The position numbers and the translations under genes were made by a program. From an uncultured Candidatus Peribacteria bacterium (lineage in GTDB: Bacteria; Patescibacteriota; Gracilibacteria; BD1-5; UBA2023), in contig CAZKUA010000006.1 of assembly GCA_964555845.1 (NCBI GenBank), positions 8,215 through 72,214 of the forward strand: a stretch of DNA of 64,000 bases. The letters run 5' to 3'. This document shows positions 23,002-64,000 of this stretch, in pieces. Every line of letters begins with the position of its first letter. Position 1 is the stretch's first letter. The notes below the pieces were generated by a model. It worked only from the letters and a program-made list of their open reading frames with translations. It made no database searches and was not told the DNA's origin.

Positions 23002-24435
23002 TTATTTTTTAGTTAATTTTACAATTGTCTCAATATGATGAGTATGTGGAAACATATCCACAGGAATTACATCAGTAATAGCATATTCTGAATTTTTTAC
23101 AATATAATCTAGGTCACGAGCCAGAGTTGAGGGATTACAACTTACATAAATTATGGTTTTCGCATCAAAAGAAATAATACTCGAAAGTGCTGTTGGATGC
23201 ATTCCATCGCGTGGTGGATCTATTACTAATAAATCCACACTAGAGACCGGTCTCGAATTTTCGAGACCGGTCTCTGATACAAATTCTTTCAAAAAATCTT
23301 CAACTTTTGCGTTAATAAATTCTACATTTTCCACATTATTTAGTTTTGCATTATTTTGCCCGTCAATACTCGCTTCTTTTACTACTTCAACTGAATATAC
23401 TTTTTTAAAATATTTTGATAAAATTATTCAAATCGTCCCTGTTCCAGCATATAAATCTAGTGCAATTTCTCACTTTTCTTTTGATAAATTAGCCAATTCA
23501 AGTGCTTTAGAATATAATACTTCAGCTTGCATTGAGTTTGTCTGGAAAAAACTTCTGGGGTTTATTTCAAAAGTGAAATCTAGTAGTTTTTCTTTTATAG
23601 TTTTTTCTCAAAAAACAAGTTCATACTCTCACTGAACTATATCAGCTTTTCCGCTATTTTTTAAGTAATAAACAGATTTAATATTTGGAAATTTAGAAGT
23701 TAATTTTTTGATAAAATCTAGAAAATTAATCATAAAATTCTCTGGGATAGAAGCTTTATCATTTACACTGAAAATTATCATAATTTCTCAGGTATAATGA
23801 GCTTCTCTTACAACTAAATGTCTCCAAAATCAAATCCCATTAAATGGATCATAAGTAGGAATTTGGCTATTTCTTGAATAGGCGTCCACTTCCTTAAAAA
23901 TATCGTTTACTGTGTTTGATGCTAGCACGCAGTATTCACAATTAATTATTCTATCAAATTCTCCCTGTTTATGAAAACCAAATCTGAAATCATCATGAAT
24001 TTCCTCTTTTGCTGAAATATATTTTCAAAAACTAAACTCAAGTTTATTTCTGTATCAATAAATGTTTTCGGATGCTACTATTGGGTAAAATTTAGTATTT
24101 TTTGTGAAATCTTTTAAGTGAAATAAGGCTTCTTTTACTTGTTCTTCTTTAATTTTTAACTGCTGCCTATAATCTATTGGAAGCCATTTACAACCTCAAT
24201 ATACTTGAAAATGAGCTGGTAGCTCTTTTTCAAGTGGAGACTTTTTTATAATATCAGTTATTTGAGCCTCAAGATATTTACTTTTAGATTTTAGAATTCT
24301 TAAATTCACAAAACTTTCTGGAATAGCACCGCCCGTAATTATAATTTTTTTTCAATCTGGACCAATTGCTAATCATTTTCCACCAAAAATTAATTTCTCA
24401 ACTTTAATATTTTCAAGTATGGCTCACTTTTTCAT
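23002..24435 (-). CDS. TrmA/RlmD-family 23S rRNA (uracil-5)-methyltransferase with TRAM-like N-terminus, 477 aa
   Basis: Motifs DLYAGTGTIG, DPPRDG and VSCNPSTLARD. The gene extends track ORF 23002-23334 in frame. Confidence 0.85.
23243..23274. repeat. 32-bp GC-rich palindromic insert inside the methyltransferase CDS
   Basis: gagaccggtctc-gaattttc-gagaccggtctc is read in frame as ETGLENSRPVS, just before the DPPRDG motif. Confidence 0.8.
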
Positions 24436-27153: not shown

Positions 27154-30100
27154 TTATGATTTTAACCAATCTGGTAAATCGTCATCATTTTTAATATTTA
27201 TATCTTCTTTTTTTGATTTTAAATCTTTTACAGGCATTTCTTTTTTAGGTTTATTTTCTTCTTTCTTATTTTCTATTTTTATAATTTTCTCTTCTTTTTT
27301 CTCTGATTTTTTTTCTTTCTCTTTTACCCTTTCTTTCACAGGTTTTTTATGTTCTCAAGACACTTTTTTTTCTTTCTTTTTCTCATTCTGTCATTCCTGC
27401 GCAGGCAGGAATCTACTTTCTATTTCCCCTTCTTCTTTAGTCTCTTTAATTTCCTCTTCTTCTACAACTTCTTTTTTACTTACTAGACTTCATTTTAACC
27501 AATCTGGTAGCTCATCACTTGCTTCCTCAATTTTCTTTTCTTCAATTTTCTTTTCCTCAATAATAGTTGGAACTTCTACGACTTCAGGAATTTCCTCTGG
27601 AATTTCTGGAATTTCTTGTTTAGTATCACCAGATAATTCTTCATTAACTTCTTGTTCTAGTTCTTCTTTATTAATTCACTTTAACCAATCATAAGTTTCT
27701 TCTTCTTGTTTCATTTCATCTTGTTTTGTTTCTTCAATAATTTCTTCAGTTTTTTCTTCTTCAATTTTCTCTTCCTCAATAATAGCTGGAACTTCTACAA
27801 CTTCAGGAATCTCTTCTTGACTAGTCATAGTTTTTAACCAATCTGGTATTTTATTATCTTCTGGGGTTTTTTCTTCAAGAGATTCTACTCCCTCTCCCTC
27901 CGGGAGAGGGTTGGGGTGAGGGATTTCTTCGTTTGGAATTTCCTGAGCTTCTTCGTGTAGAGATGGAAGTGGTTCAGGAATTTTTTCTTCTTCAATTGGT
28001 GACATTATTGAAGATAAAATATCATCTTTCCTATCTTCAACTTTGTTTATAATTAAATTAGTTTCTCACTTTTTTTCATTCAAAAATCTCTCAATCAAAA
28101 AGTCTTGAAACGATAGATTTTCATTTTTATTTGCAACTTTAAAATACACAAATAATCAAAGTATCAAAGATATAACTCACAAAATTAAATATCCAAATAA
28201 TTTAACAAATCACATCAAAAATCACATAATTCAACCACTCTCACTTTTATTTTCTTCCACAACTTGTTGAGGTACATTTGCTTGTCCTCAATAAATAATT
28301 ACTTCTAATTGCGATTTTATAATTAATTTATCTTTATCACTAATTGTTGTATCATTTTTAATAAAATCAAGAATCTCTTTTCATAGAGTTTTGTTCATAG
28401 TTGTATTTGTCGGATGAGAAAGAATCTCATCTATATTTTTCATTATCTTATCATAAGATGCAATTGTTTTTGGAATTAGAGATTTTAGAACTTTTGCAGC
28501 TAATTTTATATCATCTTTTACCTGATCTTGTTTAACGAGTAGATTTTCTGCGAGATTATAAAATTCATCTTTTAATTTCTGATCCATAGAAGCAGTGGCA
28601 TTGATATAAGATTCAAAATCAATAATTGCCTTTGTTTTCTCTCTATCATCAAACCAGTTTTCTTGAATTAAAGAAAGAAATTGCATTAGCTTAACCCTTT
28701 CTCCTTCAGGAGCTTTTTTTATAAGATTTTTAATATCTTCTATGATAATTTTATCTTGTTCTCAAATATCTTTATTATCTTTCATTTCTACAGTTTCATC
28801 TTTATTTGAAGTACTTAATTTTAATAATATATCTTTACTTTCTTTTTTTCATGCTTCATCAATAATTGATAATCTTATTGTTTTTTCATTTTTTAGAAAT
28901 TCAAGATTTGAAGTAATAAACGGAGTTCATTTATTATATGATTCACTATTTTTATTATCACAATCATCATCTTTTGTCCCATTTAAATCTGAGTCAATTG
29001 AAATATCAGTATCCACACAATATTTTGCGATACTTCATTTTGATTCACCTAAATATATAAATAATTTATCTTGAATATTATCAATTTTTATTGTAGATTT
29101 TTCAACTGCTGGATATGTAAAATATACTAAATTATCTTTTCATTTTTTAATTCTTAATTTATTTACAACATCGCGTCTTACATCACTTTTAATTTCTTTA
29201 GATTCATTATTATCAAAAACTTTTAGATTAACAGAAGTAGGGAAGGCGTCATCTCCAAAATCATAAACAAAATAATCTAAATTTGAACTTGTTATACCAT
29301 TTCACAGGGTCCATAGCGCTCCATTATAAGTTCATTTTGAAGTATTAAATAACACTAACTTACCTCAAATTGCATAATATTCAAAATTTGGTTTGAGTAC
29401 ATTTTTAACAGTAATAATTTGATATTTTGTATTTGAAATTCATTTGTAAGTTGCTTTTACTTTGAAATTAAAAGTTCAAGGCATTGTATAAACATGACTT
29501 ATTTGAGGAGAAGAACTTGCTTGTTCATAGAATCAATTTCAGTCAAAATCCCATTTATATTCTACTTTTCCTGAAATATCTTTTCATAAAATATCTTTAG
29601 CTGACACCTTAAAATTAATTTCATCATTTGTAGAAATATTTGTCTTATCAACTTCTAGTGTAATTAGGGGAGTGTTAATATTATCTCCAGATAGTGATAT
29701 TGAATATCTTTGTTCTGAAATCTCATCTGTATTAACTTTCGCTCAATTAGAATCCTCGGCAATTAGCACAAAATAATATTTTCAAGTAATTTTTGGTAAT
29801 ACAAAAGTAGTAAAGCTTGATTTTGTAATTCTAAAATCTTGAGGCTCTGGGTCTGAATCTGTATAATAATACCAAAGGTAAGATACAATTACTCAATCTT
29901 CATCAATTGGATTATTTGCCGATACTTTTACAACCACAGGATCTGACTCTATATTGGCTGCACTAATAGTTAATCCAGGAATTTTTGGTGGAATATTTTC
30001 TACTTTTATGTAAATTGTATTTTTATGAATTTTTCATGTTTTTTGGCTTTTAACTGTGAGACTCACAGGAAAACATCCAAGCTCATCGAATTTATAAGTA

Positions 30101-38311: not shown

Positions 38312-38815
38312 TTATTTACTCATCATCGGACAATTTCCGCTATTTCCACCTCTCATTCATCCTCTTCCTCCACCTCTTTTTCCTCACATTTTACCTCACA
38401 TTCCACCTTGACCAAAAGCTCACATTTTAGCTGTAATAGCTCTATCTTGGATAGATTTTACAGTTGCGGCATCAGTTGATGTCATTGTTACCTTTGTTCC
38501 ATTAGCTAATTTTTCTCTTTTTACAGTAATTAGAGAATTAGCTGGAGTTTTTGCTTGATTTTTATCAAACATTGATTGCATATGAGCTAAAGTATCTGCA
38601 TCAGTTGTTGTCATAGTTATTTCAACCCCATTTGCAATATTGTTCACAGTTCTTGTGATTTTAGATGCATATAAGCCTTGATTAACTGCTCCCGAATTAT
38701 TTCTTTGAGCAAAATTTCCTCCTGATGACATTTGTCATCTTGCCGCGTATGTAGATGATACAAGTATTGCACCAAGTGCTACAACTCAAGCGGTAATTAA
38801 AAGTGCTTTTTTCAT
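38312..38815 (-). CDS. Secreted protein with internal duplication and a Gly/Met/Arg-rich C-terminal tail, 167 aa
   Basis: Signal peptide MKKALLITAGVVALGAILVSSTYA, two copies of V.ITMT.TDA.T, and the tail GQGGMGGKMGGKRGGGRGGMRGG, which is rich in TGA. Confidence 0.6.
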
Positions 38816-38884
38816 AATATATAAAATTAATAATAAATAAAAGTTTAAATTCAAGCTTGACCGAGAGATAAGGAAGGGCATTCT

Positions 38885-38908
38885 GTCATTCCCGTGAAGA
38901 CGGGAATC
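38885..38908. repeat. GTCATTCC...GGAATC hairpin repeat copy
   Basis: gtcattcccgtgaagacgggaatc. Confidence 0.8.
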
Positions 38909-38978
38909 TATTAAAATCAAAATTACTTTCTTCTCTCTCAAAAATTAATACGAAAGAGTGAATTTTTTCTTTCAAAAA

Positions 38979-39010
38979 AAACTCCCAAACCTCATGAGGT
39001 TTGGGAGTTT
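38979..39010 (-). terminator. Rho-independent terminator of the 39028-40059 gene
   Basis: 14-bp stem aaactcccaaacct/aggtttgggagttt, with a T run on the minus strand. Confidence 0.8.
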
Positions 39011-39027
39011 TTAAATTCTTAAGTTTT

Positions 39028-40083: not shown

Positions 40084-40779
40084 TTATACATAATATGCTT
40101 TTGGTGGATTTATCTTTTTTCCAAAATGTTTTTTAAATTCACTGAGAGTAAATATTTTGTCTGCAGGAAAATCTCGCGGTCATTCCCGGGCTTTTTCAAA
40201 TCATAAAATCTCAAAGATAACTTGTTTTCATCAATGAATAAGTATATTTAAAATTCTTTCATTCATTTTTTTATCTCAAAAATCTATAGAAACTCGCTCA
40301 TCCCAAGCAGTAGAAGCAAAATTCTCTCAACTATTTTTGTAAAAAAAGACTTGTGAAGGCTCTTGTGTAAGTTTTCATCTATCTCTTAATACACCTTCTC
40401 GCATTAGACTATTAATTATACTTAAAGTTTTATTATGCAATTCATCCCATTGTTCTCAGTAAATTCTTTTGACATTTTGTTCTACAATTAATTCAAAATC
40501 ATTTAACAAGTTATTTAAACGAATTTCTTTTTGTTTTTGCATTTCTAGTTCGTGATTTTTTCTCTTTTTTTCAAATAATTTTTGTCAAATATACTCAGCT
40601 TTTTTCTCTCACTTTAATATTTCATTTGCTCTACAAGAAAACATAGATTTCAGCATACCAAGCTCATTTTCTCTGTAAGGCTTTTCAATATATGCCATTT
40701 CCTCAGCTATTTGAGAATCTATTATTTTTCCATTATTATCCTTTAATCCATAAGGAAAGTCAACAAAATTCGTTGTCAT
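40084..40779 (-). CDS. Hypothetical protein, 231 aa; N-terminal module paralogous to 46310-47461
   Basis: MTTNFVD...IDSQIAEEMAYIEKPYRENELGMLKSMF...ANEILKG. Confidence 0.5.
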
Positions 40780-40856: not shown

Positions 40857-41984
40857 CTAAACTTGTTTGTGTTCTAGTATTTTTACTCAATATTCTTCTT
40901 CTAATTTATCTTTTTCTAGGTCATCGAAAGTAAATGAAACTTCCAATCAACTGCAATCTTGTTTGCTACATACATTAAATCAAAATATTTGGTTTTGTTC
41001 TAGAATTTGATAAATTTGGTTAATATTCGCTCATCCAGTCCATATAGATAATGAAATTCATTTTTCTTGTGATAACTTAAAGGCTTCTTGGAAAAGTTCT
41101 TTTCTAAATTTTCAATCTTTAAATAATGTACCATCCCAATCAATAAACACTCATTTCATACTTATAAATTCGTTATTTTGTGTTTTTATGGTCTTACTAT
41201 TCATCACCTGGTCTATGATTTCTTCATCAGTTCAAGATAATCAAAGTCATCTCGCTTTGCCGATGAGTTTATTTTTATCATAATCTGCAACACCATTAAG
41301 AGCATGTCATAGATCATGGCGAATACCAGATAAATTTCTCTCAATATGAGCATTATCTACTCAACTTCTTCCTCAATAAATCATATTTTCTATCATAATA
41401 TCTCTAATCTCCTCATTTGTCGTATTTTTTCATTCATCGCTTTCTTTGATAGTTCTTTGAAAAAATTCCTTCATAGAAAAAATTCTTACATTTGGATATT
41501 TAGATATTTTCCTCATTATACCGACTACATCAGGGCCATAACTACCATCTCTTCAAAATTTATTATCTATAAGTATCACCGGAAGTGTTGGATATAGATC
41601 AAGCAGTTGAATTATTTTTCAAAATCAAACTGTTCAATTATTGCCTGATATTCATGAAATGCCTGTTACGAAAATACCTTTTTTAAATCTATAATCTCAG
41701 GTATTTTGAAGAATTTCAGAAAAAACCATTTCCCAAATGTGTCAATTATCACTATCTACATCTGTGGGATTTAATCTTTCTCATCTAATTTCCAGAATTT
41801 TATCTGCAATATCTCAATTTAGAATTAAATTAGATTTTGAATTTCAATCACCCAATATTCAATCAAATGCTTCTCTAAATTGATCTGTAACTTTTTCTAG
41901 GTCATCAATCCAAGAGCTTGAAATTGCGGGTTTTTCACCCTGATTTTCACTCAGTCAATCTTTTTTAATATCATCAGTTGTCAT
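40857..41984 (-). CDS. Hypothetical protein with C-terminal HAD-like DxDxT motif, 375 aa
   Basis: VFIDWDGTLF is in frame (checked at 41141). A Gly-rich loop VTGISGISG is present. Confidence 0.45.
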
Positions 41985-42017
41985 AGTATTAAAAGTTAAG
42001 TTATAAAATATTTTTTC

Positions 42018-42165
42018 AAAGAAATTAAATTTCCTTGACAAGATGAGAATACATATTTAAAAATATTTCACAAAAACTCTTGTAAAATATTTAAAAAATA
42101 CAAGAGTTTATGGCTTATTAGTGAGATAATATTTTGTTGTCTGGATAAGACAAATAAAATTTATG
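42018..42165. repeat. Copy B of a conserved non-coding element of about 150 bp
   Basis: Shares long blocks with 47495-47648: ccttgaca, aaatatttcacaaaa, caagagttt and gacaaataaa. Confidence 0.7.
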
Positions 42166-46309: not shown

Positions 46310-47461
46310 CTATATATTCAATAAACTTTGTCTTAATTCATCTCTTTCAATTTTCTGTAATCTCTCTTGTTCTTTTCTTGCTTGCTCTTCGGCTTCTTTT
46401 CTCTTTCTTTCTTGTTCCATCTTTTCTTCTGCCTCCTTTTTAATTCTATATTGCTCTGCAATTTCTTGTAATCTCTCTTTTTCTTCATTCTCTAAGAAAA
46501 TTTTATATTCTTCTTTATTCATATTATATTGAGATTTTTGTTCTCTCTCAAATTCATTAATTTCATCTCAAAAATATTTCATAAAATGATTATTTGCCCT
46601 AAGATTATCAGTTGGCATACAATCAAGAAGTCATTTCTCTCCATTTTTTCTTAAAGTTGCTTCGATAAAGACTTTTGTTCAATATTCTTTTAAATTATAT
46701 CAAGAATCATCACAGTATTTTATTATCATAGCGCTTGCTAGAGACTTATTCATCATACATTTTTCAAGATAACTGTTAAATATATTTCATACTCTATAAA
46801 TACTTATACATCTTTTACTTCTATAAAAGCTATTTTCATTTTTTCTATCTTTTTCACTTAACATAAACAAAAACAGTTCATCATCTTCAGTTGTTCTCCA
46901 ATCAGTTGGTATCATAAGAATTTCTCGCATATTATCACTCGCGTCAATTCTATTATAGAAATTTTGGTATAAAGCCCGTCTAGCTTTTCTATAAATAATA
47001 TATGAATCATCCGAGCGTTCTGCATTCGCTTTATTGGCAAAGTCATATAAGAAATTTATTGCTTCTCATAATTCAGGTTGAGTTTGAAGATACTTAATAT
47101 ATATATCTAATTTCTTTAATTCCTGCGGATTTCTTAATTCAAATTCTTCTTTTTCTTTGATGAGTCTTTCGGTTTCTTTATCTCTTTTTATTCTATCTTC
47201 TTCAGCTTTTCTCTCTTCAGCTATTCTTAATTCCTCTGCAAGTCTTAATTTTTCTTCTAATTCTTTTTCAAACTCTATTTTTTTATTTAAGAATTCTCCT
47301 GATTTTTCTTGTCATTTTAATATCTCGGAAGCTCTTCATATGAATATTGATTTTATAATTCCTAATTTATTTTCCCTAAAAGGCTTCTCAATATATGCCA
47401 TTTCCTCGGCTATTTCATAATCTATTACACGACCGTCTGTATCTAAAAATTTCGTTGTCAT
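46310..47461 (-). CDS. Hypothetical coiled-coil protein, 383 aa; N-terminal module paralogous to 40084-40779
   Basis: MTTKFLD...IDYEIAEEMAYIEKPFRENKLGIIKSIF...ASEILKG. In frame with track ORF 46310-46522. Confidence 0.55.
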
Positions 47462-47494
47462 AGTTCTAAAGGTTAAAAGCTAAATTCTTCTTTT

Positions 47495-47648
47495 TGAAGA
47501 AATCAAGTTGCCTTGACATGAGTGACAGTAATCATTTTAAAATATTTCACAAAATTTATCATTTCTTTTTTAAAAAATCCAAGAGTTTCTGGCTAATTAG
47601 AGAGATTATTTTTTGTCGTCAGAAATAGACAAATAAATTTGTAATTTT
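47495..47648. repeat. Copy A of the conserved non-coding element of about 150 bp
   Basis: See 42018-42165. It lies in the divergent region between 46310-47461 and the TrmB-like gene. Confidence 0.7.
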
Positions 47649-47667
47649 GGGGTAAAAGTGATATAAT
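47639..47667 (+). promoter_or_regulatory. Sigma70-type promoter for the TrmB-like regulator
   Basis: TTGTAA, 17-nt spacer, TATAAT with an upstream TG. Confidence 0.6.
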
Positions 47668-47698
47668 AGCAAGAAATTAGTAATTAACATAATTTTTT

Positions 47699-48484
47699 AT
47701 GTCATCAAAATACGCAAAATATCTGGAGGAACTGGGGCTTGATAAAAATGAGGCTACGATATATTTGAGTCTTTTGCAGTTTGGAAATGCGATAGCCGGG
47801 ACTATTGTCAAAGAGACTTGATTACCGAGAGCGACAGTTTATCAGACACTTGATAGACTTGTGCAGAAGAATTTAGTTTTAAAAATTGATAAAGAAAATA
47901 TACTTACTTATTTCCCAGAAAGTCCAGAAAAATTAATAACAAATCTTAATAAACAGACAAGAGATTTAAGAAAAAAATTAGATCTTGCGGAGAAGTTAGT
48001 GCCTCATTTGGACACCTTAAAAAATCCTCACAAAAAAGATCCACAAGCGAGTTATTTTGAGTGAGAAGAGGCATATTATGAACTTCTAGAAAAATCTTTA
48101 AGAAAAAATGTGTGAGAAATACTTATGATTTCCAATTCTAAATACAAAAAACAAAACATAAAAGACGAGACAAAACTTGAGGCGATTTACAATTATGAGG
48201 ACAAAATTTTCTCAACTAAAAGACTTGAAGCTAAAATTAAACTGAGATTTATCACAAATGAAGAGAATATTTGAAAGGAATTACAGAAAAATGATATGGA
48301 TTTTATGAGGGAAACTCGCGTATTGCGAGATGATTTCGGGCAAACAGAAACTATGATAATTTTTGGAGATAATCTTATAATGATCACTGATAACTACCCA
48401 ATAATCTGACTTCACATAAAAGAAGCTCAACTCACAACTATGATGAGAAATTTATTTGAATTTGTGTGGAAGAGTTTGGGATAA
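47699..48484 (+). CDS. TrmB-family transcriptional regulator, 261 aa
   Basis: LGLDKNEATIYLSLLQFGNAIAGTIVKETGLPRATVYQTLDRLVQKNLV. Confidence 0.7.
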
Positions 48485-49712: not shown

Positions 49713-49713
49713 A

Positions 49714-49744
49714 AAATCCCACAGGCGCTCAGCCCATGGGATTT
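49714..49744. terminator. Candidate hairpin between convergent genes
   Basis: aaatccca-15 nt-tgggattt followed by a T run. Confidence 0.45.
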
Positions 49745-49772
49745 CAAATTTTTTTATCATACGAGTGGAAAT

Positions 49773-50639
49773 CTAACTTCAGATCCCACTCACAATAATT
49801 TTGATGTCTTCGGACCTAAGGAGACCGAAACCAAGTTGGTTCAAAATCTCCATATTGGCTAGTTCCAGAGCGTCCATTCTGGATATTCCTGTCCTTATAT
49901 TTATTTGATGAAAATCTCCTTGTCCCAATATCGCCTTGTAGGCCTCATGGTTTTGAGGTCGAAATTCGACATGGAGATTCCCGTCGAAATGCTCTTCCTT
50001 TCTCCATCCTGATTCTTCAGAGCTGAAGATACTGATTTTGGCAGGAATTTCAGCCGGTTCCAGTTTTGCGACCGGGAAATACAAATCTTCCAGAGTCTTG
50101 AATCCCAAGGGAACGATTACTTCCTCTGTTGTCACTTTACCATCCGCTTTTGAAAACCACACAAAATTGGGATCAGGCTTGGATAAGCTTGAAGATATCG
50201 ACCAGGTATTGATAGTTAAGGCAATAACAACAAACACTGGAAGATATTTCCTGTGTTTATCCCACAAATATCCTCCGAAAATTGCAAAGAGAGCCATGAG
50301 ACAAAAGCTAAATCCTACTATTGTAATAACAGGACCATTCCCAAAAATAACACCGCAAATAGAAATAATAATACCAATGATACCAAGAAAAAGAGTTTCT
50401 CCACTATTAGGCAATGATAGTACAAAAATGAAAACCCCGATAATGAGATTGGTTAAAACCAACCTTTCTATTGATATCTGAAAATGTGGCTGGTGTAGCC
50501 CATAGTAGGCGATACCAACCAGTATTGCAGTCATCATTATTGTCAGCATTGTGGAAAGCCGATTTTCTGGCTTCCAGATAAGGTTAAGGAACGAAGAAAC
50601 AGACCATTGTGTTTTTGGTACAACATTTGTTGCTTCCAT
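49773..50639 (-). CDS. Membrane protein of unknown function (4-5 TM helices plus soluble C-terminal domain); 288 aa in table 25, 286 aa in the standard code
   Basis: Intact ORF in the standard code with no internal TGA. By my count all 22 Gly are GGN. G+C is higher than the flanks. The standard-code TGA stop (49779-49781) reads as Gly in table 25, so translation would continue to the TAG at 49773-49775. Confidence 0.75.
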
Positions 50640-50646
50640 GATTTTT

Positions 50647-50654
50647 CCCTCCTT
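50647..50654 (-). promoter_or_regulatory. Strong Shine-Dalgarno site AAGGAGGG 7 nt upstream of the ATG at 50639
   Basis: The plus strand reads ccctcctt. Confidence 0.7.
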
Positions 50655-50716
50655 GCGGGATATTTTATTTTTGTCTTGATATTTGTATTCGCTGAAAATT
50701 ATTTCCAGTAATTCTA

Positions 50717-50744
50717 CTTATAATCAAAAACATATTTTTGTCAA
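50717..50744 (-). promoter_or_regulatory. Sigma70-type promoter for the membrane-protein gene
   Basis: On the minus strand: TTGACA, 16-nt spacer, TATAAG. Confidence 0.5.
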
Positions 50745-50772
50745 TAGAAAATTTGGGATTATTTTGGTAAAT

Positions 50773-51409: not shown

Positions 51410-51424
51410 AATTTAAAAAATATT

Positions 51425-51448
51425 GTCATTCCCTCGTAGGAGGGAATC
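51425..51448. repeat. GTCATTCC...GGAATC hairpin repeat copy
   Basis: gtcattccctcgtaggagggaatc. Confidence 0.8.
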
Positions 51449-51497
51449 TTCCTTGTATTTTAAAAACTTCTTTTTGTAATCTTGAACTCCACGACCT

Positions 51498-51544
51498 GTC
51501 ATTTCAAACTTTCCTACTGTCATTTCGAACAAAGTGAGAAATCC
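51498..51544. repeat. Two degenerate GTCATTTC units in direct orientation
   Basis: gtcatttcaaactttcctact followed by gtcatttcgaacaaagtgagaaatcc. Confidence 0.6.
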
Positions 51545-51626
51545 CTTTTTGATGCACACTTGGAAAACATAATTCCCAAGTTTAACTTTTCTTTAAGTTT
51601 TAGTCTCAAAAGATTTGATTTAAAGG

Positions 51627-51672
51627 GATTCCTCGTTATCACTCGGAATGACAGAAGGGAACTCGAAATGAC
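51627..51672. repeat. Inverted copies of the same unit facing 51498-51544
   Basis: gattcctcgttatcactcggaatgac and ggaactcgaaatgac. Confidence 0.6.
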
Positions 51673-51696
51673 AAGTGGGATGCGAGGGATTTTTTG

Positions 51697-58396: not shown

Positions 58397-58522
58397 GTGG
58401 AAAATTAAGAAGTTGCAGAGAGATTTTATGATTTCATTATGAAAATTCGATATTTATATTCAACTATCGGGAAAATGCAAATGATTTGTGTGAAATCTTT
58501 TTGAGAATTTTTGGAGAAAAAT

Positions 58523-58550
58523 TTGCAAAAAAGAGAAATAGGTGTAGAAT
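58523..58550 (+). promoter_or_regulatory. Sigma70-type promoter for fic
   Basis: TTGCAA, 16-nt spacer, TAGAAT. It is followed by the hairpin aggtgtaa...ttacacct in the leader. Confidence 0.55.
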
Positions 58551-58587
58551 AGGTGTAACAAAATTATTTTACACCTAATTTATACCT

Positions 58588-59898
58588 ATGCAAGAAAAAT
58601 ATCTACTAGAAAAATGTGATATAAAAAAATTATCCATAACACAAGAAAAGATTGATATTTACTTTAAAGAAAAACTAAATAAATATTCTGATGAAGAATA
58701 TTTATATTGGGATAAGATTAAATATAAAAATATTCCTGAATGATTTAATGATAATAAGGAATTATGGGGAATAATTAAAATTATGAGAATTCCAAACATA
58801 ATATCGCCAATAAAAACTGAAACATGAAATTTTTTTAAGTTTTGAGAATTACAGTTTTCAAAAGAGCTTTTGCATGAAATTGATAAAAATACTTCTTGAA
58901 CCTTTTTTACTAGTATTTCAGAGACTGATAAAAAATTATTTATAGCAAATTGAACGCTTGAAGAAGCTATAAGTTCAAGTCAATTAGAATGAGCTTCAAC
59001 TACAACAAAAAATGCCAAAGAAATGATTCAAAAGTGAAAAAAACCAACAACAAAAGATGAACAAATGATTTTAAATAATTTTCATGCGATGAATTATATA
59101 AAAAATGATTTAATTAAAAAAGAACTTGAAATTTGAGATTTATTATATTTACAATCGGTTTTAACAAAAGATACAATTGAAAAAGATGAAATATGAAGAT
59201 TTAGAAAGGATTCTGATAATATAATTGTAGAATTTGAATGAAAAATTACACATATTCCACCAAATGAAAAATTTCTAGCCACTGAAATAAAAAATTTCAT
59301 TGATTTTGCAAATGATAAATGAAGTTTTGATATGTTTGTACATCCTATTATAAAAGCAATTTTGATACATTTTTGGATTTGATATTTACATCCTTTTTGT
59401 GATTGAAATGGGAGAACGGCAAGGGCTTTATTTTATTGGTATTTGTTAAAACATGATTATTTTGGATTCTCATATATTCCATTATCATCAACAATCAAAA
59501 AATCAAAAATAGATTATGCAAAATCATATATTTATAGTGAACAAGATGATTTAGACGCTAATTATTTCATAAATTATAATCTTAGAAAAATTAAATTAGC
59601 ACTTAATAAATTCAAAGAAGAGATAACTATAAAATTTAAACAAAATCATAATAATTTAAAAAAATTAGCACATCTCGATTTAAATGATAGACAAAAAAAA
59701 TTAATAAATTATTTTTTAGAAAATAAAGATTCATTTACAAATCCAATAACTCATATGAATTATTATAGTCTTTCAAAGAAAACAGCCATTGTAGATTTAA
59801 AAACTCTAGAAAAAAAGTGATTTATATTCTCCATAAAATCTTGAAGAAATCTTAATTACTTTCCTGTAGACAATTTATCTGATAAAATCAGTAAATAA
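58588..59898 (+). CDS. Fic-family protein (AMPylase-type) with C-terminal winged-helix domain, 436 aa
   Basis: HPFCDGNGRTAR with a TGA Gly (59389-59424). The frame matches track ORF 59443. Confidence 0.85.
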
Positions 59899-59902
59899 GT
59901 TT
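59811..59902. repeat. Direct repeat copy 1 (the native 3' end of fic)
   Basis: aaaaaagtgatttatattctccataaaatc...tctgataaaatcagtaaataagttt recurs 800 bp downstream. Confidence 0.85.
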
Positions 59903-60054
59903 GAAAGTGGATTTATTACACATTGATCAGACGATGACCATATTTTGACTATAAATTTTTTATAAAACTAAATTTACGCCTTTGAAGATTATTTGAAGTT
60001 GTTTAGGTAGAGTCAGAATAGAGCTAAGAATTTAATTTTTTTATTCTATAAAAT

Positions 60055-60636
60055 ATGTTTTTATTTATTTTGTTAATTAAGGTTATTTTAGCTAGTTTTT
60101 ATTTTATTATAATTTTACTTACTTCCTTTTATCTTATTGGTTCTTTTATAGCAATAATTCAAACTAAATGAGTACCATATGTACCAAGTTATGATAAAGA
60201 TATTGCCACAATGAAAGAAAAATTAAAATTAGAAAATACTTGATCAATAATTGATCTAGGCTGTTGAGATGGTAAAGCATTGAGATTTTTTGTTAAAAAT
60301 TATTGATTTAAGAAAGCTGTAGGATATGATCTTAACTTGCCAGCAATTTTGTTTTGAAAATTTTTAAATAAAAATAAAAAAATAAAAAATGTTAAGTTAA
60401 TAAATAAAAATTTTATTTGAGTAGATTTAGCTTGATATGATTATGTTTTTGTTTACTTACTTACTGAATATCTAGTGAAAATTGAAGATTATGTTTTCTC
60501 AAGTATTGGCGACAATACAATAATTATCAGTAACGCCTTCAAATTCAAAAAACACGAACCATTTGAAATTATAAAAGACAATTATTGAAAGGATAGATTT
60601 ATGTTCTATAAAAAAAGTGATTTATATTCTCCATAA
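60055..60636 (+). CDS. Class I SAM-dependent methyltransferase with N-terminal TM helix, 193 aa
   Basis: Motif I IIDLGCGDGKAL. The 3' end runs into repeat copy 2 in a different frame. Confidence 0.65.
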
Positions 60637-60703
60637 AATCCTGAAAATAATCTTAATTATTTTCCTTTAGATAATTTATCTGATAAAATCAGTAAATAAG
60701 TTT
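60611..60703. repeat. Direct repeat copy 2: a relic fic 3' end with an internal 1-nt indel
   Basis: Nearly identical by eye to 59811-59902. The fic reading frame is broken at gaaaataatc versus gaagaaatc. Confidence 0.8.
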
Positions 60704-60740
60704 ACATAAATATTTTTTTTGAAATTAGGCCCGGATTTTT

Positions 60741-60800
60741 GTCATTTCTGCCATCTCTGTCATTCCTGCCATCTCTGTCATTCCTGCGGAGGCAGGAATC
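60741..60800. repeat. Tandem array of two truncated 18-bp units plus one complete GTCATTCC...GGAATC hairpin
   Basis: gtcatttctgccatctct, gtcattcctgccatctct, then gtcattcctgcggaggcaggaatc. Confidence 0.85.
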
Positions 60801-61201
60801 TACTTATTATAACGATAAAGTTTTTCTTAATGTATTTTCTTAATAAATTTTGAGTCAAAAAAGTAATATAAATTGATTTATATATTTTGGCTTTTTGATG
60901 AAATAAAATTTACTAAAATATAGGAATTAGTACAAAAATAGTTTGATTTTTTGGAAAAATTCATATTATAAAATAAAGGTATATAAAAGTCGATATACTC
61001 TGGATATATTTCTAATATAATATTTATGATAAAAGCTACAAAAATAGCTCTTGAAATAAGAAAATCCCAAGAGCTAAATTGTAAAGAATTATATGTAATC
61101 CTTTAGTAAGTAAGTTGAATTATATATATTTTCTAGGATTTTCAAGTTTTTTATATTTTTTGATAAAAAATATAAATTTATAACTTAACTTAGTAATAAC
61201 T

Positions 61202-61405
61202 ATGACACAAGATGCAGCCGGAATGAGATGATACCGTTCTCGTAATCAAAACGGGGAATTAAGACAAAAAAGAGGTGATACACATATTTGAACTATTGAG
61301 CAAAACTATTGAATTGATTTATGAGTTCGTGGTGATATGCACTTAGAAACATTCTTAGAAAATCATAATATTGAATCATTAAATGATTTAATAAATTGAA
61401 AATAA
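61202..61405 (+). CDS. Small hypothetical protein, 67 aa
   Basis: GELRQKRGDTHIGTIEQNYGIDLGVRGDMHLETFL resembles a small family I recall but cannot name. Confidence 0.4.
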
Positions 61406-61429
61406 TTTATAATTTAATTATAAAATAAT

Positions 61430-61546
61430 ATGGCAACTAAAACTATATGTAAACCTACAAGGACTACATCAAAACCTGGACCAAAAACAGTAATTGTTCC
61501 AGCACATAAAAGAAGTACACCAACAAAACTTCCTAAGTGTAAATAA
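61430..61546 (+). CDS. Very small basic ORF, 38 aa
   Basis: An ATG ORF followed directly by a terminator. Confidence 0.25.
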   Translation: MATKTICKPTRTTSKPGPKTVIVPAHKRSTPTKLPKCK

Positions 61547-61551
61547 AAAAT

Positions 61552-61575
61552 AAAATCCTAGCTTGCTAGGATTTT
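61552..61575. terminator. Bidirectional rho-independent terminator
   Basis: aaaatcctag-cttg-ctaggatttt. Confidence 0.75.
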
Positions 61576-61580
61576 ATTTT

Positions 61581-62531
61581 TTATAATATTTCATTAATTT
61601 TATCAAATAAAATTTTAAAATCTGAAAAATTAATTTCATTATGACTTTCTACTATTTTTTTAGAGAAACTTTCTTTTTGCTTTATTTCTAATTTGGTATA
61701 GTTAAATCAATCATCAGACATTGGTTTTATAGAATCTTTAAATCAAATTTTTTCAATATCTTTATCTGATATATAATATTCTATTTCAATACTTCAGTCT
61801 GACTTTTTATTATCTCTTTTTCCGTATCATGGCCTATTTAAAGGAATAGGATAAACCAATCAAGTTGCATAATTTTTTCATAATTTAGTTTTAACTTTTA
61901 AATGATTTTGATCTTCATCTTTTATTTCTTCAAAATCTGCCCTTCTAATATCAATTTTATGATATCCCTTAAATCAGGCATCATCTCTATCAAATAATCA
62001 TATTACTTGACTTTCTCATTTCCAGTAATAAATAATATTTCATAAATTTTCTGCATTTGCTAAAGTTTTTGGTAATTTTTCTCAGTTATATAAATCACAA
62101 TTCTCTATTTTAAATAAAGAATTATTGTCATAGACTTCATTTAAATTATCTTCATTAAAATCATCTAATCAGTTTATTTTTAACCAAGCTGTTTTTAGAA
62201 TTTTTTCATCACTTTTTCATTCAGTTAAAATCAATGGTTTAATAATATTTTTTGATAAATTAGTTAATCTATCATTTCATAATCATCCTGCATCCTCGGG
62301 AATATTCAAAATTTCTATTATCTTTTTTAAAGATTTTTCATCATGTCTTTTTACGGCATTCAAAGACATTGAATAAAAATCTTGTGAATCAATAAATTTA
62401 AAAAAATCATCGGAAATACTTTTTGGAGAATTTGCTCTTATTAGCTCAATAAGTTCATATTTATCAAAAGCTTCTTGATAAAATGGAGGAAATCTTCAAG
62501 TGAGATATATAGAAATACGATTTAAGTCCAT
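61581..62531 (-). pseudogene. TOPRIM-like hypothetical gene interrupted by two compensating frameshifts (or assembly indels)
   Basis: The frame of 62531 stops at TAG 62268-62270. The middle part LILTEGKSDEKIL reads one frame over, until TAA 62141-62143. The rest (GLFDRDDAG...) returns to the first frame and ends at 61581. Confidence 0.45.
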
Positions 62532-62558
62532 AAATAAAATTATTAACAAACACCTCAC

Positions 62559-62609
62559 ATTATATCATTTTTCCATATTTTTGCAAAATTATCATATAAT
62601 CTTTAATAT
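62559..62609. promoter_or_regulatory. Back-to-back promoters sharing one palindromic -35 box, TTGCAA (62581-62586)
   Basis: Minus strand: TTGCAA, 16-nt spacer, TATAAT (62559-62564). Plus strand: TTGCAA, 17-nt spacer, TAATAT (62604-62609). Confidence 0.55.
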
Positions 62610-62675
62610 AAGAAGTTAAATGAAGATAAATTAAAAAATTATTTTGTTTTTTAGGGTTTTTAATTAATATAAAAA

Positions 62676-62880
62676 AGCCAAGATAACATTTTTAAATTAT
62701 TATTTTCTCATAATAAAAATTAAAGGGCAGTTTTACAACTGCTCTCGCCCTTAATGTTTATTATGGGAGAAAAATAGTTATCTTGGCTGACGACTAGAGT
62801 TGTTTATTAAAACTGCCCTTTTTGTTAGCCAAGATTCCAATGTCTTTTTTGGCGTGTTTATTTGATAAATACGCCTTTTA
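62676..62880 (+). promoter_or_regulatory. Structured leader or candidate ncRNA upstream of the EcoRI-like methyltransferase
   Basis: 12-bp perfect pairs 62676-62687/62777-62788 and 62723-62734/62809-62820 are interleaved. There is a nested helix (62703-62717/62757-73), a direct repeat agccaagat (62827-62835) and a terminator-like hairpin (62851-62875) 6 nt before the ATG. Confidence 0.5.
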
Positions 62881-62881
62881 T

Positions 62882-63832
62882 ATGGAAAAGAAATCTAAAA
62901 ATAAAAATCTAAATAATGCAAATACTGCTAAAAAGGATGAATTCTATACACAATTATCAGACATAGAAAAAGAACTAGGTCACTACAAAGAACATTTTAA
63001 ATGAAAAACTATTTTCTGTAATTGTGACGATCCAGAAGAAAGTAACTTTTGGAATTATTTCGCTTTAAATTTTGAGCATCTTTGACTAAAAAAGTTAGTC
63101 GCTACTCATTATGAAACAGAAAAACCCTCATATAAATTAGAAATTGTATGAGATATAAACAATGATTGAAAAATAAATAAACTTGATACTATAAAAACTC
63201 CTCTAAAACAAAATTGAGATTTCAGAAGTCCTGAATGTATCGAAATATTAAAAGAAGCCGATATAGTAATTACAAACCCGCCATTTTCACTATTTAGAGA
63301 ATATGTTGCACAACTTTTTGAATATGATAAAAAATTCATAATTTTAGGGAACTTAAATGCTATAACATATAAAGAAATTTTTAAGCTTATAAAAGAAAAT
63401 AAAATATGGTCTTGAGCCACTCTTGATGGTAGAAATATATGGTTTAGAATACCGGATACTTATGAAAAATATCATAAAATTGAAAACTGAATTAAATATG
63501 CTTTTGTGGCAAGTACAATTTGGTTTGCCAATTTAGACTATAAAAAAAGACATGAAGATTTAATTCTATATAAAACATACAACGAAGAAGAATATCTAAA
63601 ATATGATAATTATAATGCAATAAATGTAAACAAAACAAAGAATATTCCTATGGATTATAAATGAGAAATAGGTGTTCCTATAACCTTTTTACTTAAATAT
63701 AATCCAGAACAATTTGAAATTATTTGAATTGATAGAGTATTAGTGCAAGAATTAACAGGAAAAGTAACTCGTTTTCATATAGATTGAAAAGAAATTTATG
63801 CTCGTGTAATTATCAAAAACAAAAAACTTTAA
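62882..63832 (+). CDS. Adenine-specific DNA methyltransferase, EcoRI-methylase-like family, 316 aa
   Basis: VITNPPFSLFREY catalytic motif (frame checked at 63272) and the N-terminal KKDEFYTQ pattern. Confidence 0.7.
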
Positions 63833-63852
63833 TTTTTTAACAATATTTATTT

Positions 63853-64000
63853 ATGAAAATAGAATTAAAAGAAATTGCAATTAGAGAAGTTGCAAATGGA
63901 TATGTAAACGATAATGAAGAGTGAGTTGTCGGATTTGGCGGAAGGCTAAATATTCGCCCAAAATACCAAAGAGAATTTGTGTATAAAGATAAACAAAGAG
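63853..64000 (+). CDS. N-terminal fragment of a DUF262/ParB-Srx-fold-like protein; continues beyond the window
   Basis: GRLNIRPKYQREFVYKDKQR resembles the DUF262 IPxYQRxYVW box. Confidence 0.35.

What the first reader, a model, noticed from the sequence alone, without database searches (positions are those of the whole stretch)
51425..51690. Family of GC-rich GTCATTCC...GGAATC hairpin repeats scattered through an AT-rich genome
At least seven loci carry the same termini around compensatory variable stems.
- gtcattcc-tgcgcaggca-ggaatc (27390)
- gtcattcc-cgtgaagacg-ggaatc (38885)
- gtcattcc-ctcgtaggag-ggaatc (51425)
- gtcattcc-tgcggaggca-ggaatc (60777)
- degenerate gtcatttc units (51498, 51519, 60741)
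- inverted copies (51627-51672)
Between rbr and the anti-sigma gene, direct and inverted units face each other and could form a structure of about 180 bp. Conserved ends with covarying stems indicate selection on a hairpin, as in REP- or MITE-like elements. No such family is known to me from code-25 lineages.
Basis: seen in the sequence. Interest (0 to 1): 0.65.

Follow-up and report, generated by a model that had tools for sequence, protein, structure and literature searches.

The report
Ssn-type DNA hairpin repeats in Gracilibacteria
The GC-rich GTCATTCC...GGAATC hairpins are real, and they belong to a repeat family already known from Neisseria and many other bacteria (dRS3/NTS, the sites cut by small Ssn single-strand DNA nucleases), here found in a tiny alternative-code bacterium where copies have been gained or lost recently.

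Summary
GTCATTYC-N8-16-GRAATC occurs 6 times in the window against 0.03 expected.

- **Canonical copies.** Four copies (27390, 38885, 51425, 60777) are GTC-ATTCCnnn-GNAG-nnnGGAAT-C hairpins with an 8-bp stem.
- **Family.** They match the Neisseria dRS3/NTS "Ssn-related motif" in 24 of 28 positions. The match includes the unpaired GTC and 3' C that Chenal et al. 2025 showed govern cleavage and binding by the GIY-YIG ssDNA nuclease SsnA.
- **Distribution.** The same 31-nt motif occurs in at least 113 genome stretches from many phyla, including six Gracilibacteria MAGs. Nine of those stretches carry a ~95-aa Ssn-like gene, and three of these genes abut the hairpin.
- **Covariation.** It is strong: 235 of 254 copies are fully paired, against a shuffle maximum of 122.
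- **"Degenerate" units.** The units at 51519 and 51627 are a second structured subfamily with tandem G·A mismatches. Inverted pairs of this subfamily flank a distinct Ssn subclade elsewhere.
- **Sister genome.** It has a 44-nt terminator where the window has the 262-nt cluster. It also lacks the in-frame copy at 27390, but keeps the copy at 38885.
- **Ssn gene.** None lies in 71.4 kb of the contig. The rest of the genome could not be searched.

Verdict: a new member of a known kind, of moderate interest.

The parts
27390..27413 (+). Canonical NTS-like hairpin GTCATTCC-TGC-GCAG-GCA-GGAATC. It lies in frame inside the E/K-rich C-terminal linker of the 1783-aa ORF 27154-32505 (-), where it is read as ...ESRFLPAQEGQ... 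with TGA as Gly.
   Evidence: covariance model E = 7e-12. The hairpin is absent from the orthologous gene of the sister genome.
38885..38908 (+). Canonical hairpin GTCATTCC-CGT-GAAG-ACG-GGAATC, between two minus-strand genes. It matches the Neisseria NTS consensus in 24 of 28 positions and is the only copy that passes the published SRM search pattern.
   Evidence: E = 3e-12. It is conserved, with ~180 nt of spacer, at the orthologous site of JALNXF01.
51419..51680 (.). A 262-nt mosaic of hairpin units between the converging rubrerythrin and anti-sigma-like genes. In the sister genome only 19 nt of a 44-nt bidirectional terminator occupy this position.
   Evidence: The blastn break points are window 51418 and 51681, against L131 9304 and 9284. 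Alignment and sequence are, and the terminator fold.
51425..51448 (+). Canonical hairpin GTCATTCC-CTC-GTAG-GAG-GGAATC, 16 nt after the rubrerythrin stop codon. Its CTC:GAG inner stem is unique among 254 copies and resembles the left arm (CTCTCG) of the sister's terminator.
   Evidence: (E = 1.6e-9), with the sister sequence.
51494..51548 (+). Type C unit. It consists of a left-arm half-site (GTCATTTC, 51498-51505) followed by the hairpin GTC-ATTTC-GA-AC-AAA-GT-GA-GAAAT-C (51519-51543) and a CCTTT tail.
   Evidence: The hairpin matches a Spirochaetes MAG (L092) exactly over 24 nt.
51549..51621 (.). The 73-nt AT-rich spacer between the two facing type C units.
51622..51680 (-). Type C unit in inverted orientation. 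The hairpin is GTC-ATTCC-GA-GT-GATA-AC-GA-GGAAT-C (51627-51652), with an upstream half-site GTCATTTC (51665-51672).
   Evidence: E = 0.0025.
51680..51694 (.). GCGAGGGATTTTTTG, the surviving right arm and T-run of the ancestral bidirectional terminator.
   Evidence: It aligns with GCGAGAGATTTTTTG of the sister genome.
60741..60800 (+). Two 18-nt tandem copies of the 5' flank plus left arm (GTCATTYCTGCCATCTCT), followed by the canonical hairpin GTCATTCC-TGC-GGAG-GCA-GGAATC (60777-60800).
   Evidence: E = 6e-12. It lies in a 58.5-64 kb island with no counterpart in the sister locus.

Best explanation
The repeats are short DNA hairpin elements of the dRS3/NTS 'Ssn-related motif' superfamily. These palindromes expose a stem-loop when the DNA is single-stranded. 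They carry an unpaired GTC on the 5' side and a C on the 3' side, which give them an orientation.

In other bacteria this motif is bound, and the DNA cut a few bases upstream, by ~95-aa single-domain GIY-YIG nucleases (Ssn). The Ssn genes sit between such hairpins, in the manner of an insertion sequence.

The window's genome, a Gracilibacteria MAG using code 25, carries two subfamilies:
- perfect 8-bp hairpins (27390, 38885, 51425, 60777);
- hairpins bulged by tandem G·A mismatches, arranged as a facing pair (51494-51680).

The solo hairpins and the pair most likely behave as non-autonomous, REP/BIME-like passengers of an Ssn element, and copies have been gained or lost since the split from a sister genome.

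Shown here: membership of the sequence family, covariation, association with Ssn genes in other genomes, and presence/absence differences between sister genomes. Inferred: that an Ssn encoded elsewhere in this genome acts on these copies, and how copies spread.
For: **Match to the published motif.** The copy at 38885 matches the NTS consensus CGTCATTCCCGCGMAVGCGGGAATCYRG in 24 of 28 positions, and two of the four differences form a compensating pair. All four copies keep the GTC and the 3' C that mutagenesis showed to govern cleavage and binding.

**Distribution.**
- The 31-nt pattern with flanks hits at least 113 genome stretches from many phyla, including the Gracilibacteria MAGs JALNXF01, JAQVVS01, JAAXWG01, JAQUWS01, DYHI01 and DHWA01.
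- A shorter version of the pattern (26 nt, without the outer flank bases) hits 16 viral contigs.

**Association with Ssn-like genes.**
- Nine of the 113 stretches encode a ~95-aa GIY-YIG protein. In L124, L108 and L060 the hairpin lies 6 to about 30 nt from the gene's end.
- Of six Ssn homologs in viral contigs, three (L257, L259, L260) have GTC-type hairpins within about 65 nt of the gene. L257 and L259 are GTCATTCC…GGAATC type; L260 carries variant perfect palindromes.
- These proteins are PF01541 and are named 'GIY-YIG nuclease family protein'.

**Covariation.**
- Of 254 copies, 235 have all three variable pairs complementary, against a shuffle mean of 98 and maximum of 122. Twelve distinct stems occur.
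- On alignment A7, 97.2% of cells are paired and 53 cells are changed on both sides, against 13 expected. None of 500 shuffles reaches this.

**Type C subfamily.**
- It occurs in at least 120 viral and at least 120 metagenome stretches, with covarying inner pairs.
- Four of the 120 metagenome stretches hold an Ssn-like gene, and three of those genes (L356, L310, L277) are flanked by type C hairpins. In L356 the flanks are inverted pairs separated by 28 nt, the same layout as the window's pair.
- These three proteins are more divergent (35-51% identity to the A/B-flanked ones) and share a distinct motif.

**Turnover between sister genomes.**
Against: - No Ssn or other GIY-YIG gene lies in 71.4 kb of the 75.8-kb contig, nor in roughly 220 kb of Gracilibacteria DNA read in total. 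The tools could not reach the rest of the genome.
- Only one of the four canonical copies passes the published SRM search pattern, and none is within one mismatch of the Neisseria NTS.
- The type C motif is not covered by that search pattern. No gene family was enriched next to type C copies in viral contigs.
- No outgroup fixes the direction of the change, so insertion in the window's lineage and deletion in the sister's cannot be separated formally.
- No biochemical or expression data exist for this organism.
Confidence: 0.8

Rival explanations
1. They are classical REP elements mobilised by a REP-associated tyrosine (Y1/HUH) transposase, as in gamma-proteobacterial REPtrons.
For: They are dispersed and mostly extragenic palindromes with a conserved unpaired 5' motif. 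Facing (+,-) pairs resembling BIMEs are the commonest arrangement (53 of 77 neighbouring pairs). The Ssn paper itself draws this analogy.
Against: The conserved 5' motif is GTC, not GT[AG]G. The sequence is essentially that of NTS/dRS3. In other genomes the gene found between such hairpins is a GIY-YIG nuclease, not a Y1 transposase. Pfam scans of ten ORFs in and around the variable regions near the hairpins found no transposase.
Confidence: 0.05
2. They are transcription terminators or mRNA-stabilising 3' hairpins selected at the RNA level.
For: The copies at 51425 and 60777 lie 16 nt and about 140 nt downstream of stop codons, on the sense strand. The 51.4-51.7 kb cluster occupies the place of a terminator in the sister genome. 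The simple scan scores 51428-51447 as terminator-like, with a weak T-rich tail.
Against: - None of the hairpins is followed directly by a T-run. Real terminators in these genomes are long stems flanked by A- and T-runs, folding at -18 to -23.5 kcal/mol.
- One such terminator sits beside the 38885 copy, so that copy is not needed for termination.
- Orientation relative to transcription is inconsistent: 27390 and 38885 are antisense to the local genes.
- The copy at 27390 lies inside a coding region.
- Unpaired bases identical across phyla point to recognition by a protein, not to stem stability alone.
- SsnA does not bind RNA.
Confidence: 0.1
3. They are passive relics or attachment sites: targets for IS110-type or phage recombinases (as dRS3 is for meningococcal filamentous prophages), or fossils carried in with horizontally acquired DNA, with no resident enzyme acting on them.
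For: dRS3 is a known phage recombinase target. No Ssn gene was found on the contig. In the paper, 19% of genomes with more than 200 SRM copies lack an Ssn gene. The 60777 cluster sits in a variable island holding Fic and restriction-modification genes. The copy at 38885 is old and conserved.
Against: Two or three of the window's sites differ from a sister genome that is 84-94% identical in the aligned flanking DNA, so turnover is recent. The copies are intact and fully paired rather than decayed. No integrase, IS110 element or prophage lies next to any copy.
Confidence: 0.2

Closest known systems
Neisseria dRS3 / NTS and the wider 'Ssn-related motifs' with their Ssn (cd10448 GIY-YIG) single-strand nucleases (Chenal et al., Nat Commun 2025, PMC11893778)
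   Same: - The core ATTCC(C/T)-N8-(G/A)GGAAT is shared, as are the unpaired 5' GTC and 3' C, the GNAG/GMAV loop and the 8-bp stem.
- Copies are mostly intergenic, and often occur in facing pairs or mosaics.
- The identical motif lies next to ~95-aa GIY-YIG genes in other genomes.
   Different: - The host is an AT-rich (27% GC) code-25 Gracilibacteria MAG.
- The inner stems are partly AT-substituted (TGC, CGT, CTC), so three of the four copies fail the published search pattern.
- No Ssn gene has been seen in this genome so far.
- One copy lies in frame within a coding region.
- 18-nt duplications of the left arm occur upstream of some copies.
Neisseria intergenic mosaic elements (NIMEs) and enterobacterial BIMEs
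   Same: The 51419-51680 cluster is a mosaic of oriented hairpin units in alternating orientation separated by short spacers, sitting between converging genes.
   Different: The units belong to two hairpin subfamilies. No RS-type spacer families or IHF/gyrase sites were identified. The cluster replaces half of a terminator present in the sister genome.
REP elements with RAYT (Y1 transposase) 'REPtrons' and the IS200/IS605 family
   Same: Both involve recognition of single-stranded DNA hairpins, a short conserved unpaired motif 5' of the stem, and an enzyme gene flanked by its own hairpins. The logic of the system is comparable.
   Different: The enzyme fold differs (GIY-YIG against HUH/Y1), and so does the motif (GTC against GTAG). 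Transposition by Ssn has not been demonstrated.
Rickettsia palindromic elements (RPEs)
   Same: As with RPEs, a palindromic repeat is inserted in frame into a protein-coding gene without breaking it (the 27390 copy, in a low-complexity linker).
   Different: RPEs are 100-150 bp long and unrelated in sequence. Here only one 24-nt copy, plus a second unrelated palindrome at about 27880-27925, lies within a coding region.

Membership tests
dRS3 (Neisseria) | A 20-bp palindrome ATTCCC-N8-GGGAAT | tested here: met
   The copies at 38885 and 51425 match exactly. Those at 27390 and 60777 carry ATTCCT...AGGAAT, a single compensated change.
NTS (Chenal 2025) | CGTCATTCCCGCGMAVGCGGGAATCYRG with at most 1 mismatch | tested here: not met
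   The best copy, 38885, matches 24 of 28 positions, and the others match fewer. The functionally critical GTC and 3' C are present in all four.
Ssn-related motif (SRM) | A match to HGTCWYN(0-2)YYVSBRHN(0-5)WNVSBRGN(0-2)RNCYNB | tested here: inconclusive
   One of the four canonical copies (38884-38911) matches, against a shuffle mean of 0.01. The other three fail only because their inner stem pairs are AT-substituted. Type C units do not match.
Ssn-related motif (SRM) | A hairpin with stem pairing maintained by compensating changes | tested here: met
   235 of 254 copies are fully paired, against a shuffle maximum of 122. On A7, 97.2% of cells are paired and no shuffle of 500 reaches the observed covariation.
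Ssn-related motif (SRM) | Spatial association with an Ssn (single-domain GIY-YIG, ~95 aa) gene | tested here: met
   This holds in other genomes that carry the same motif.
- Nine of 113 stretches hold an Ssn-like gene, and three of those genes abut the hairpin.
- L257 and L259 show the same for GTCATTCC…GGAATC hairpins; L260 is flanked by variant GTC-type palindromes.
- For type C, L356, L310 and L277 are flanked directly.
Ssn-related motif (SRM) | A cognate Ssn gene present in the same genome | not testable with these tools
   None lies in 71.4 kb of the 75.8-kb contig or in about 220 kb of Gracilibacteria DNA read. The other contigs of GCA_003488725.1 could not be fetched.
REP / RAYT (REPtron) | A GT[AG]G tetranucleotide 5' of an imperfect palindrome, with a Y1-transposase gene flanked by REPs | tested here: not met
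   The 5' motif is GTC(A). The flanked gene seen elsewhere is a GIY-YIG nuclease. No transposase domain was found in ten ORFs scanned in and around the variable regions near the hairpins. The whole genome was not searched.
MITE | Terminal inverted repeats plus a target-site duplication | tested here: inconclusive
   The type C pair has ~55-nt inverted arms, and a second such pair lies 3.9 kb upstream of the window. No target-site duplication could be defined at the junctions of the 51419-51680 cluster.
Intrinsic terminator | A GC-rich stem followed directly by a U-run | tested here: not met
   The tails are CTACTTTC, CTATTAAA, CTTCCTTG and CTACTTAT. True terminators in these genomes look quite different. 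The scan gives a lenient hit only for the copy at 51428.

The most novel reading that the evidence does not exclude
In Gracilibacteria these hairpin modules may be actively mobile. The evidence would be a 262-nt mosaic landing in a bidirectional terminator, a 24-nt copy landing in frame in a coding linker, and 18-nt duplications of the left arm as footprints of the cutting and copying reaction. This would be the first comparative evidence that Ssn-type hairpins transpose.

In the same reading, the G·A-bulged 'type C' hairpin and its divergent Ssn homologs (shared motif REKxIKG[W/F]xRxKK) would form a second, so far undescribed nuclease/site specificity pair.
Probability: 0.25. Interest if true: 0.6.

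Novelty: new member of a known kind. Interest (0 to 1): 0.35.

Why it matters
The finding extends the recently described Ssn hairpin system to a reduced-genome, alternative-code candidate phylum.

The comparison with a sister genome shows copies appearing or disappearing. One change is inside a terminator and another is in frame in a gene. The original paper could only hypothesise mobility from the insertion-sequence-like gene layout, so this comparison bears directly on that hypothesis.

The second, G·A-bulged hairpin type with its own nuclease subclade is a concrete lead for a new single-strand DNA cutting specificity. That is of practical interest, because Ssn enzymes are being developed as ssDNA tools.

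For annotators, the result explains recurrent spurious peptides such as ...DSRLHGND... and ...SRFLPAQEGQ... in these genomes.

Tried and rejected
**Negative searches in the window**
- Rfam at gathering thresholds and a tRNA scan found nothing.
- A regex and two profile searches for GIY-YIG genes found nothing in the window, its contig or any Gracilibacteria locus.

**Attempts to find a lineage-specific Ssn**
- A family-wide protein search returned only close relatives of the query, because the family has at least 8000 members.
- The most AT-biased hit that lay on a contig long enough to judge (P0110) came from an unrelated secretin-bearing organism.

**Other checks that led nowhere**
- Genes next to type C hairpins in 120 viral stretches were clustered to look for an enriched partner. 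Only ordinary phage genes turned up.
- Full-text searches for the type C sequence found no description of it.
- A preprint that mentions SsnA could not be opened.
- Outgroup loci intended to fix the direction of the 51.4-kb insertion are not syntenic.
- The terminator scan missed perfect bidirectional terminators, so folding was used instead.

**Ideas rejected**
- Chance: excluded by the shuffle counts.
- Assembly artefact: the 38885 copy is conserved in an independent assembly.
- CRISPR-like array: there are no regular spacers.

**Idea left open**
- The CTC stem of the 51425 copy may derive from the terminator's left arm. This is a post-hoc resemblance (that stem occurs in about 1 of 253 other copies) and was left unexplained.

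Full report
**1. Observation**

The window is 27% GC, and TGA is a sense codon. Under the standard code, ORFs of at least 100 aa total about 5,300 residues. With TGA read through they total about 27,600, and TGA far outnumbers TGG in almost every ORF. The window is part of GCA_003488725.1, contig DNKQ01000017.1. Its closest relatives are labelled Candidatus Gracilibacteria.

The pattern GTCATTYC-N8-16-GRAATC occurs 6 times, against 0.03 expected. Four copies (27390, 38885, 51425, 60777; all on the + strand) have the form GTC-ATTCCnnn-GNAG-nnnGGAAT-C. They fold as 8-bp DNA hairpins, and their inner three pairs differ but remain complementary. The ~180-nt long-range fold is predicted with z = -3.2.

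**2. What the canonical hairpins are**

A literature search on the core ATTCCC-N8-GGGAAT led to Chenal et al. 2025 (PMC11893778). That paper makes the following points.
- It redefines the Neisseria dRS3 repeat as the 28-nt NTS, CGTCATTCCCGCGMAVGCGGGAATCYRG.
- SsnA, a 94-aa single-domain GIY-YIG protein, binds this hairpin only as single-stranded DNA and cuts a few bases upstream.
- The C just after the palindrome is the key base for binding.
- The three bases before the palindrome (GTC) govern cleavage.
- Related motifs (SRMs) flank Ssn genes across phyla in an insertion-sequence-like NTS-ssnA-NTS layout.

The copy at 38885 matches the NTS in 24 of 28 positions, and two of the four differences form a compensating pair. 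All four copies keep the GTC and the 3' C. Only 38884-38911 passes the published degenerate search pattern, because the other three have AT-substituted inner pairs.

**3. Distribution and partner gene**

A 26-nt version of the motif hits 16 viral contigs. These come from Flavobacteriaceae, Legionella, Coxiellaceae, Spirochaetes, many candidate-phyla bacteria and six MAGs labelled Gracilibacteria or relatives of them.

Nine of the 113 stretches encode a ~95-aa GIY-YIG protein. In L124, L108 and L060 the hairpin lies 6 to about 30 nt from the gene's end. A profile of these proteins retrieves at least 8000 relatives, all PF01541 and named 'GIY-YIG nuclease family protein'. Of six homologs in viral contigs, three (L257, L259, L260) have GTC-type hairpins within about 65 nt of the gene: L257 and L259 carry the GTCATTCC…GGAATC type, and L260 carries variant perfect palindromes.

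**4. Covariation**

The three inner pairs were left free in every search pattern.
- Among 254 copies, 235 have all three pairs complementary, against a shuffle mean of 98 and a maximum of 122.
- Twelve different stems occur.
- On a 63-sequence alignment, 97.2% of cells pair and 53 cells are changed on both sides, against 13 expected. None of 500 shuffles reaches this, and all slid controls collapse.

**5. The 'degenerate' units are a second subfamily**

The units at 51519(+) and 51627(-), and two more found 3.9 kb upstream of the window on the same contig, align over about 55 nt. Each has this layout:
- a half-site TGTCATTYC;
- about 12 nt of spacer;
- the hairpin GTC-ATTYC-GA-[2 bp]-[loop]-[2 bp]-GA-GRAAT-C;
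- a CCTTT tail.

The inner two pairs covary (AC:GT, GT:AC), and the two GA steps face each other as tandem G·A mismatches. The 51519 hairpin matches a Spirochaetes MAG exactly over 24 nt.

The dominant form is GTCATTCTGAGCGAAGCGAAGAATC, and its inner pairs covary as GC:GC, AC:GT, CC:GG and GG:CC.

In the 120 metagenome stretches, four hold Ssn-like genes, and three of these genes are flanked directly by type C hairpins. In L356 the gene has a C(+)-28 nt-C(-) inverted pair on its upstream side, with a weaker pair and a further full pair downstream. This is the same composite layout as window 51494-51680. These three proteins are PF01541. They are only 35-51% identical to the ones flanked by canonical hairpins, and they share a different motif, REKxIKG[W/F]xRxKK.

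No paper in the library contains the type C sequence. Facing (+,-) pairs are the commonest neighbour arrangement for both subfamilies.

**6. Comparison with a sister genome**

JALNXF01 (GCA_023230505.1) and independent ENA assemblies share 84-94% nucleotide identity over the aligned regions. Site by site:
- **38885.** The hairpin, with about 180 nt of spacer, is essentially identical in the sister, while the neighbouring coding sequence is 84% identical.
- **51419-51680.** The sister's spacer between rubrerythrin and the anti-sigma-like gene is 44 nt. It is a perfect bidirectional terminator, AAAAAAATCTCTCGCTTTGCGAGAGATTTTTT, folding at -18 kcal/mol. The window has 262 nt where the sister has 19, and it keeps the right arm GCGAGGGATTTTTTG.
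- **27390.** This copy is read in frame as SRFLPAQEGQ in the E/K-rich tail of a 1783-aa protein. It is absent from the sister's ortholog.
- **60777.** This cluster lies in a 58.5-64 kb island (Fic, methylases) that has no counterpart in the sister locus.

No syntenic outgroup was found. Gain in the window's lineage is the simpler reading, because the sister's terminator is intact, but it is not proven.

**7. Census and the missing enzyme**

A covariance model finds only the four canonical copies in the window (E of 1.6e-9 or lower), and scores type C units weakly. The 3.5 kb downstream of the window adds a fifth canonical copy. This gives five canonical and four type C units in 71.4 kb.

Two Ssn profiles run without filters find nothing in those 71.4 kb (best E = 0.04). 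They also find nothing in about 220 kb of Gracilibacteria DNA in total. This cannot decide whether the genome has an Ssn gene, because the remaining contigs were out of reach.

**8. Rival explanations**

- **Terminators.** Unlikely as the primary role. No T-run follows any hairpin, and true terminators in these genomes look quite different. Orientation relative to transcription is inconsistent. One copy is within a coding region. SsnA ignores RNA.
- **REP/RAYT.** The motif and the associated gene do not fit.
- **Passive relics or recombinase targets.** This remains possible, because no enzyme gene has been seen. The recent turnover and the intact pairing argue against it.

**9. Verdict**

This is a real repeat family and a member of a known kind (dRS3/NTS/SRM with Ssn), in a new host lineage. 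Three leads go beyond the published picture:
- the presence/absence evidence for turnover between sister genomes;
- the G·A-bulged subfamily with its own Ssn subclade;
- the unexplained 18-nt duplications of the left arm.

Noticed in passing
window 60741-60776; L392 tail (contig 3' end); L026 ~2500-2530; L069 ~4715-4740: Several hairpins are preceded by one or two tandem copies of their own 5' flank plus left arm, with an 18-nt period. In two cases the repeat includes that copy's own variable triplet (TGC at 60741, CAC in the downstream copy). Type C units have a similar half-site 19-21 nt upstream. GTCATY within 5-35 nt upstream occurs in 12% of A/B copies elsewhere, against 4% downstream. 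The mechanism is unknown.
   Followed up: partly
window 38816-38990: The spacer holding the 38885 hairpin is nearly 100% identical to the sister genome over about 180 nt, while the adjacent coding sequence is 84% identical. This could be a conserved leader or regulatory region of the Gly-rich secreted-protein gene 38312-38815 (-). A strong bidirectional terminator at about 38977-39012 is present only in the window.
   Followed up: partly
window ~27880-27925: A second, unrelated GC-rich palindrome (CCCTCTCCC-GGA-GGGAGAGGG) lies in frame in the same giant ORF, where it encodes HPNPLPEGEGV. It too is absent from the sister ortholog.
   Followed up: partly
window 49713-50768: A 1,056-nt segment between the ArsP-like gene and rubrerythrin is absent from the sister genome. 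Its 288-aa membrane-protein ORF (49773-50639, -) has 1 TGA and 6 TGG codons, unlike its neighbours. The segment falls in the 48-52 kb stretch that is relatively GC-rich (0.33-0.34 against about 0.27 for the window). The ORF has no Pfam match. It may have been acquired from a standard-code organism.
   Followed up: partly
window 58500-64000: This is a variable island with no counterpart in the sister locus. It holds a Fic protein (58588-59898), a methyltransferase-like ORF (60055-60636), an unassigned 331-aa ORF with a Toprim-like ExxxDxD look (61581-62576, -) and an EcoRI-type adenine methylase (62822-63832).
   Followed up: partly
window 40084-40779, 46310-47461, and 41977-42161 against 47371-47701: Two ORFs share an N-terminal module (MTT.F.D...IAEEMAYIEKP.REN.LG), and short DNA segments are repeated between 40.6-42.2 kb and 47.2-47.7 kb. 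Neither ORF has a Pfam match.
   Followed up: no
L262 1-300 (ERZ27247100, closest relative of the PKD gene): The tail of the giant ORF in this relative carries a GC-richer, non-repetitive insert (...AGATGCCCCCGCGCGACATGCTCCTGAGGGGCTCGG...) at the place where the window has the hairpin. The linker appears to be a hotspot for insertions.
   Followed up: no
L264 12712-14553 (JALNXF010000006.1): The tRNA U5-methyltransferase ortholog is 613 aa and carries a DUF559 (Vsr-like endonuclease) domain. The window's counterpart (23002-24435) is 477 aa and lacks it.
   Followed up: no
L391 5560-5780: In a more distant relative, a GC-rich block of about 200 nt follows the anti-sigma gene within otherwise AT-rich DNA. 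It could be a structured RNA. It was not examined.
   Followed up: no
L132 9248-9296; window 38972-39020: A method note. The terminator scan reports nothing for perfect bidirectional terminators with A-run and T-run flanks, apparently because the stem is extended through the runs. Folding shows them clearly.
   Followed up: yes
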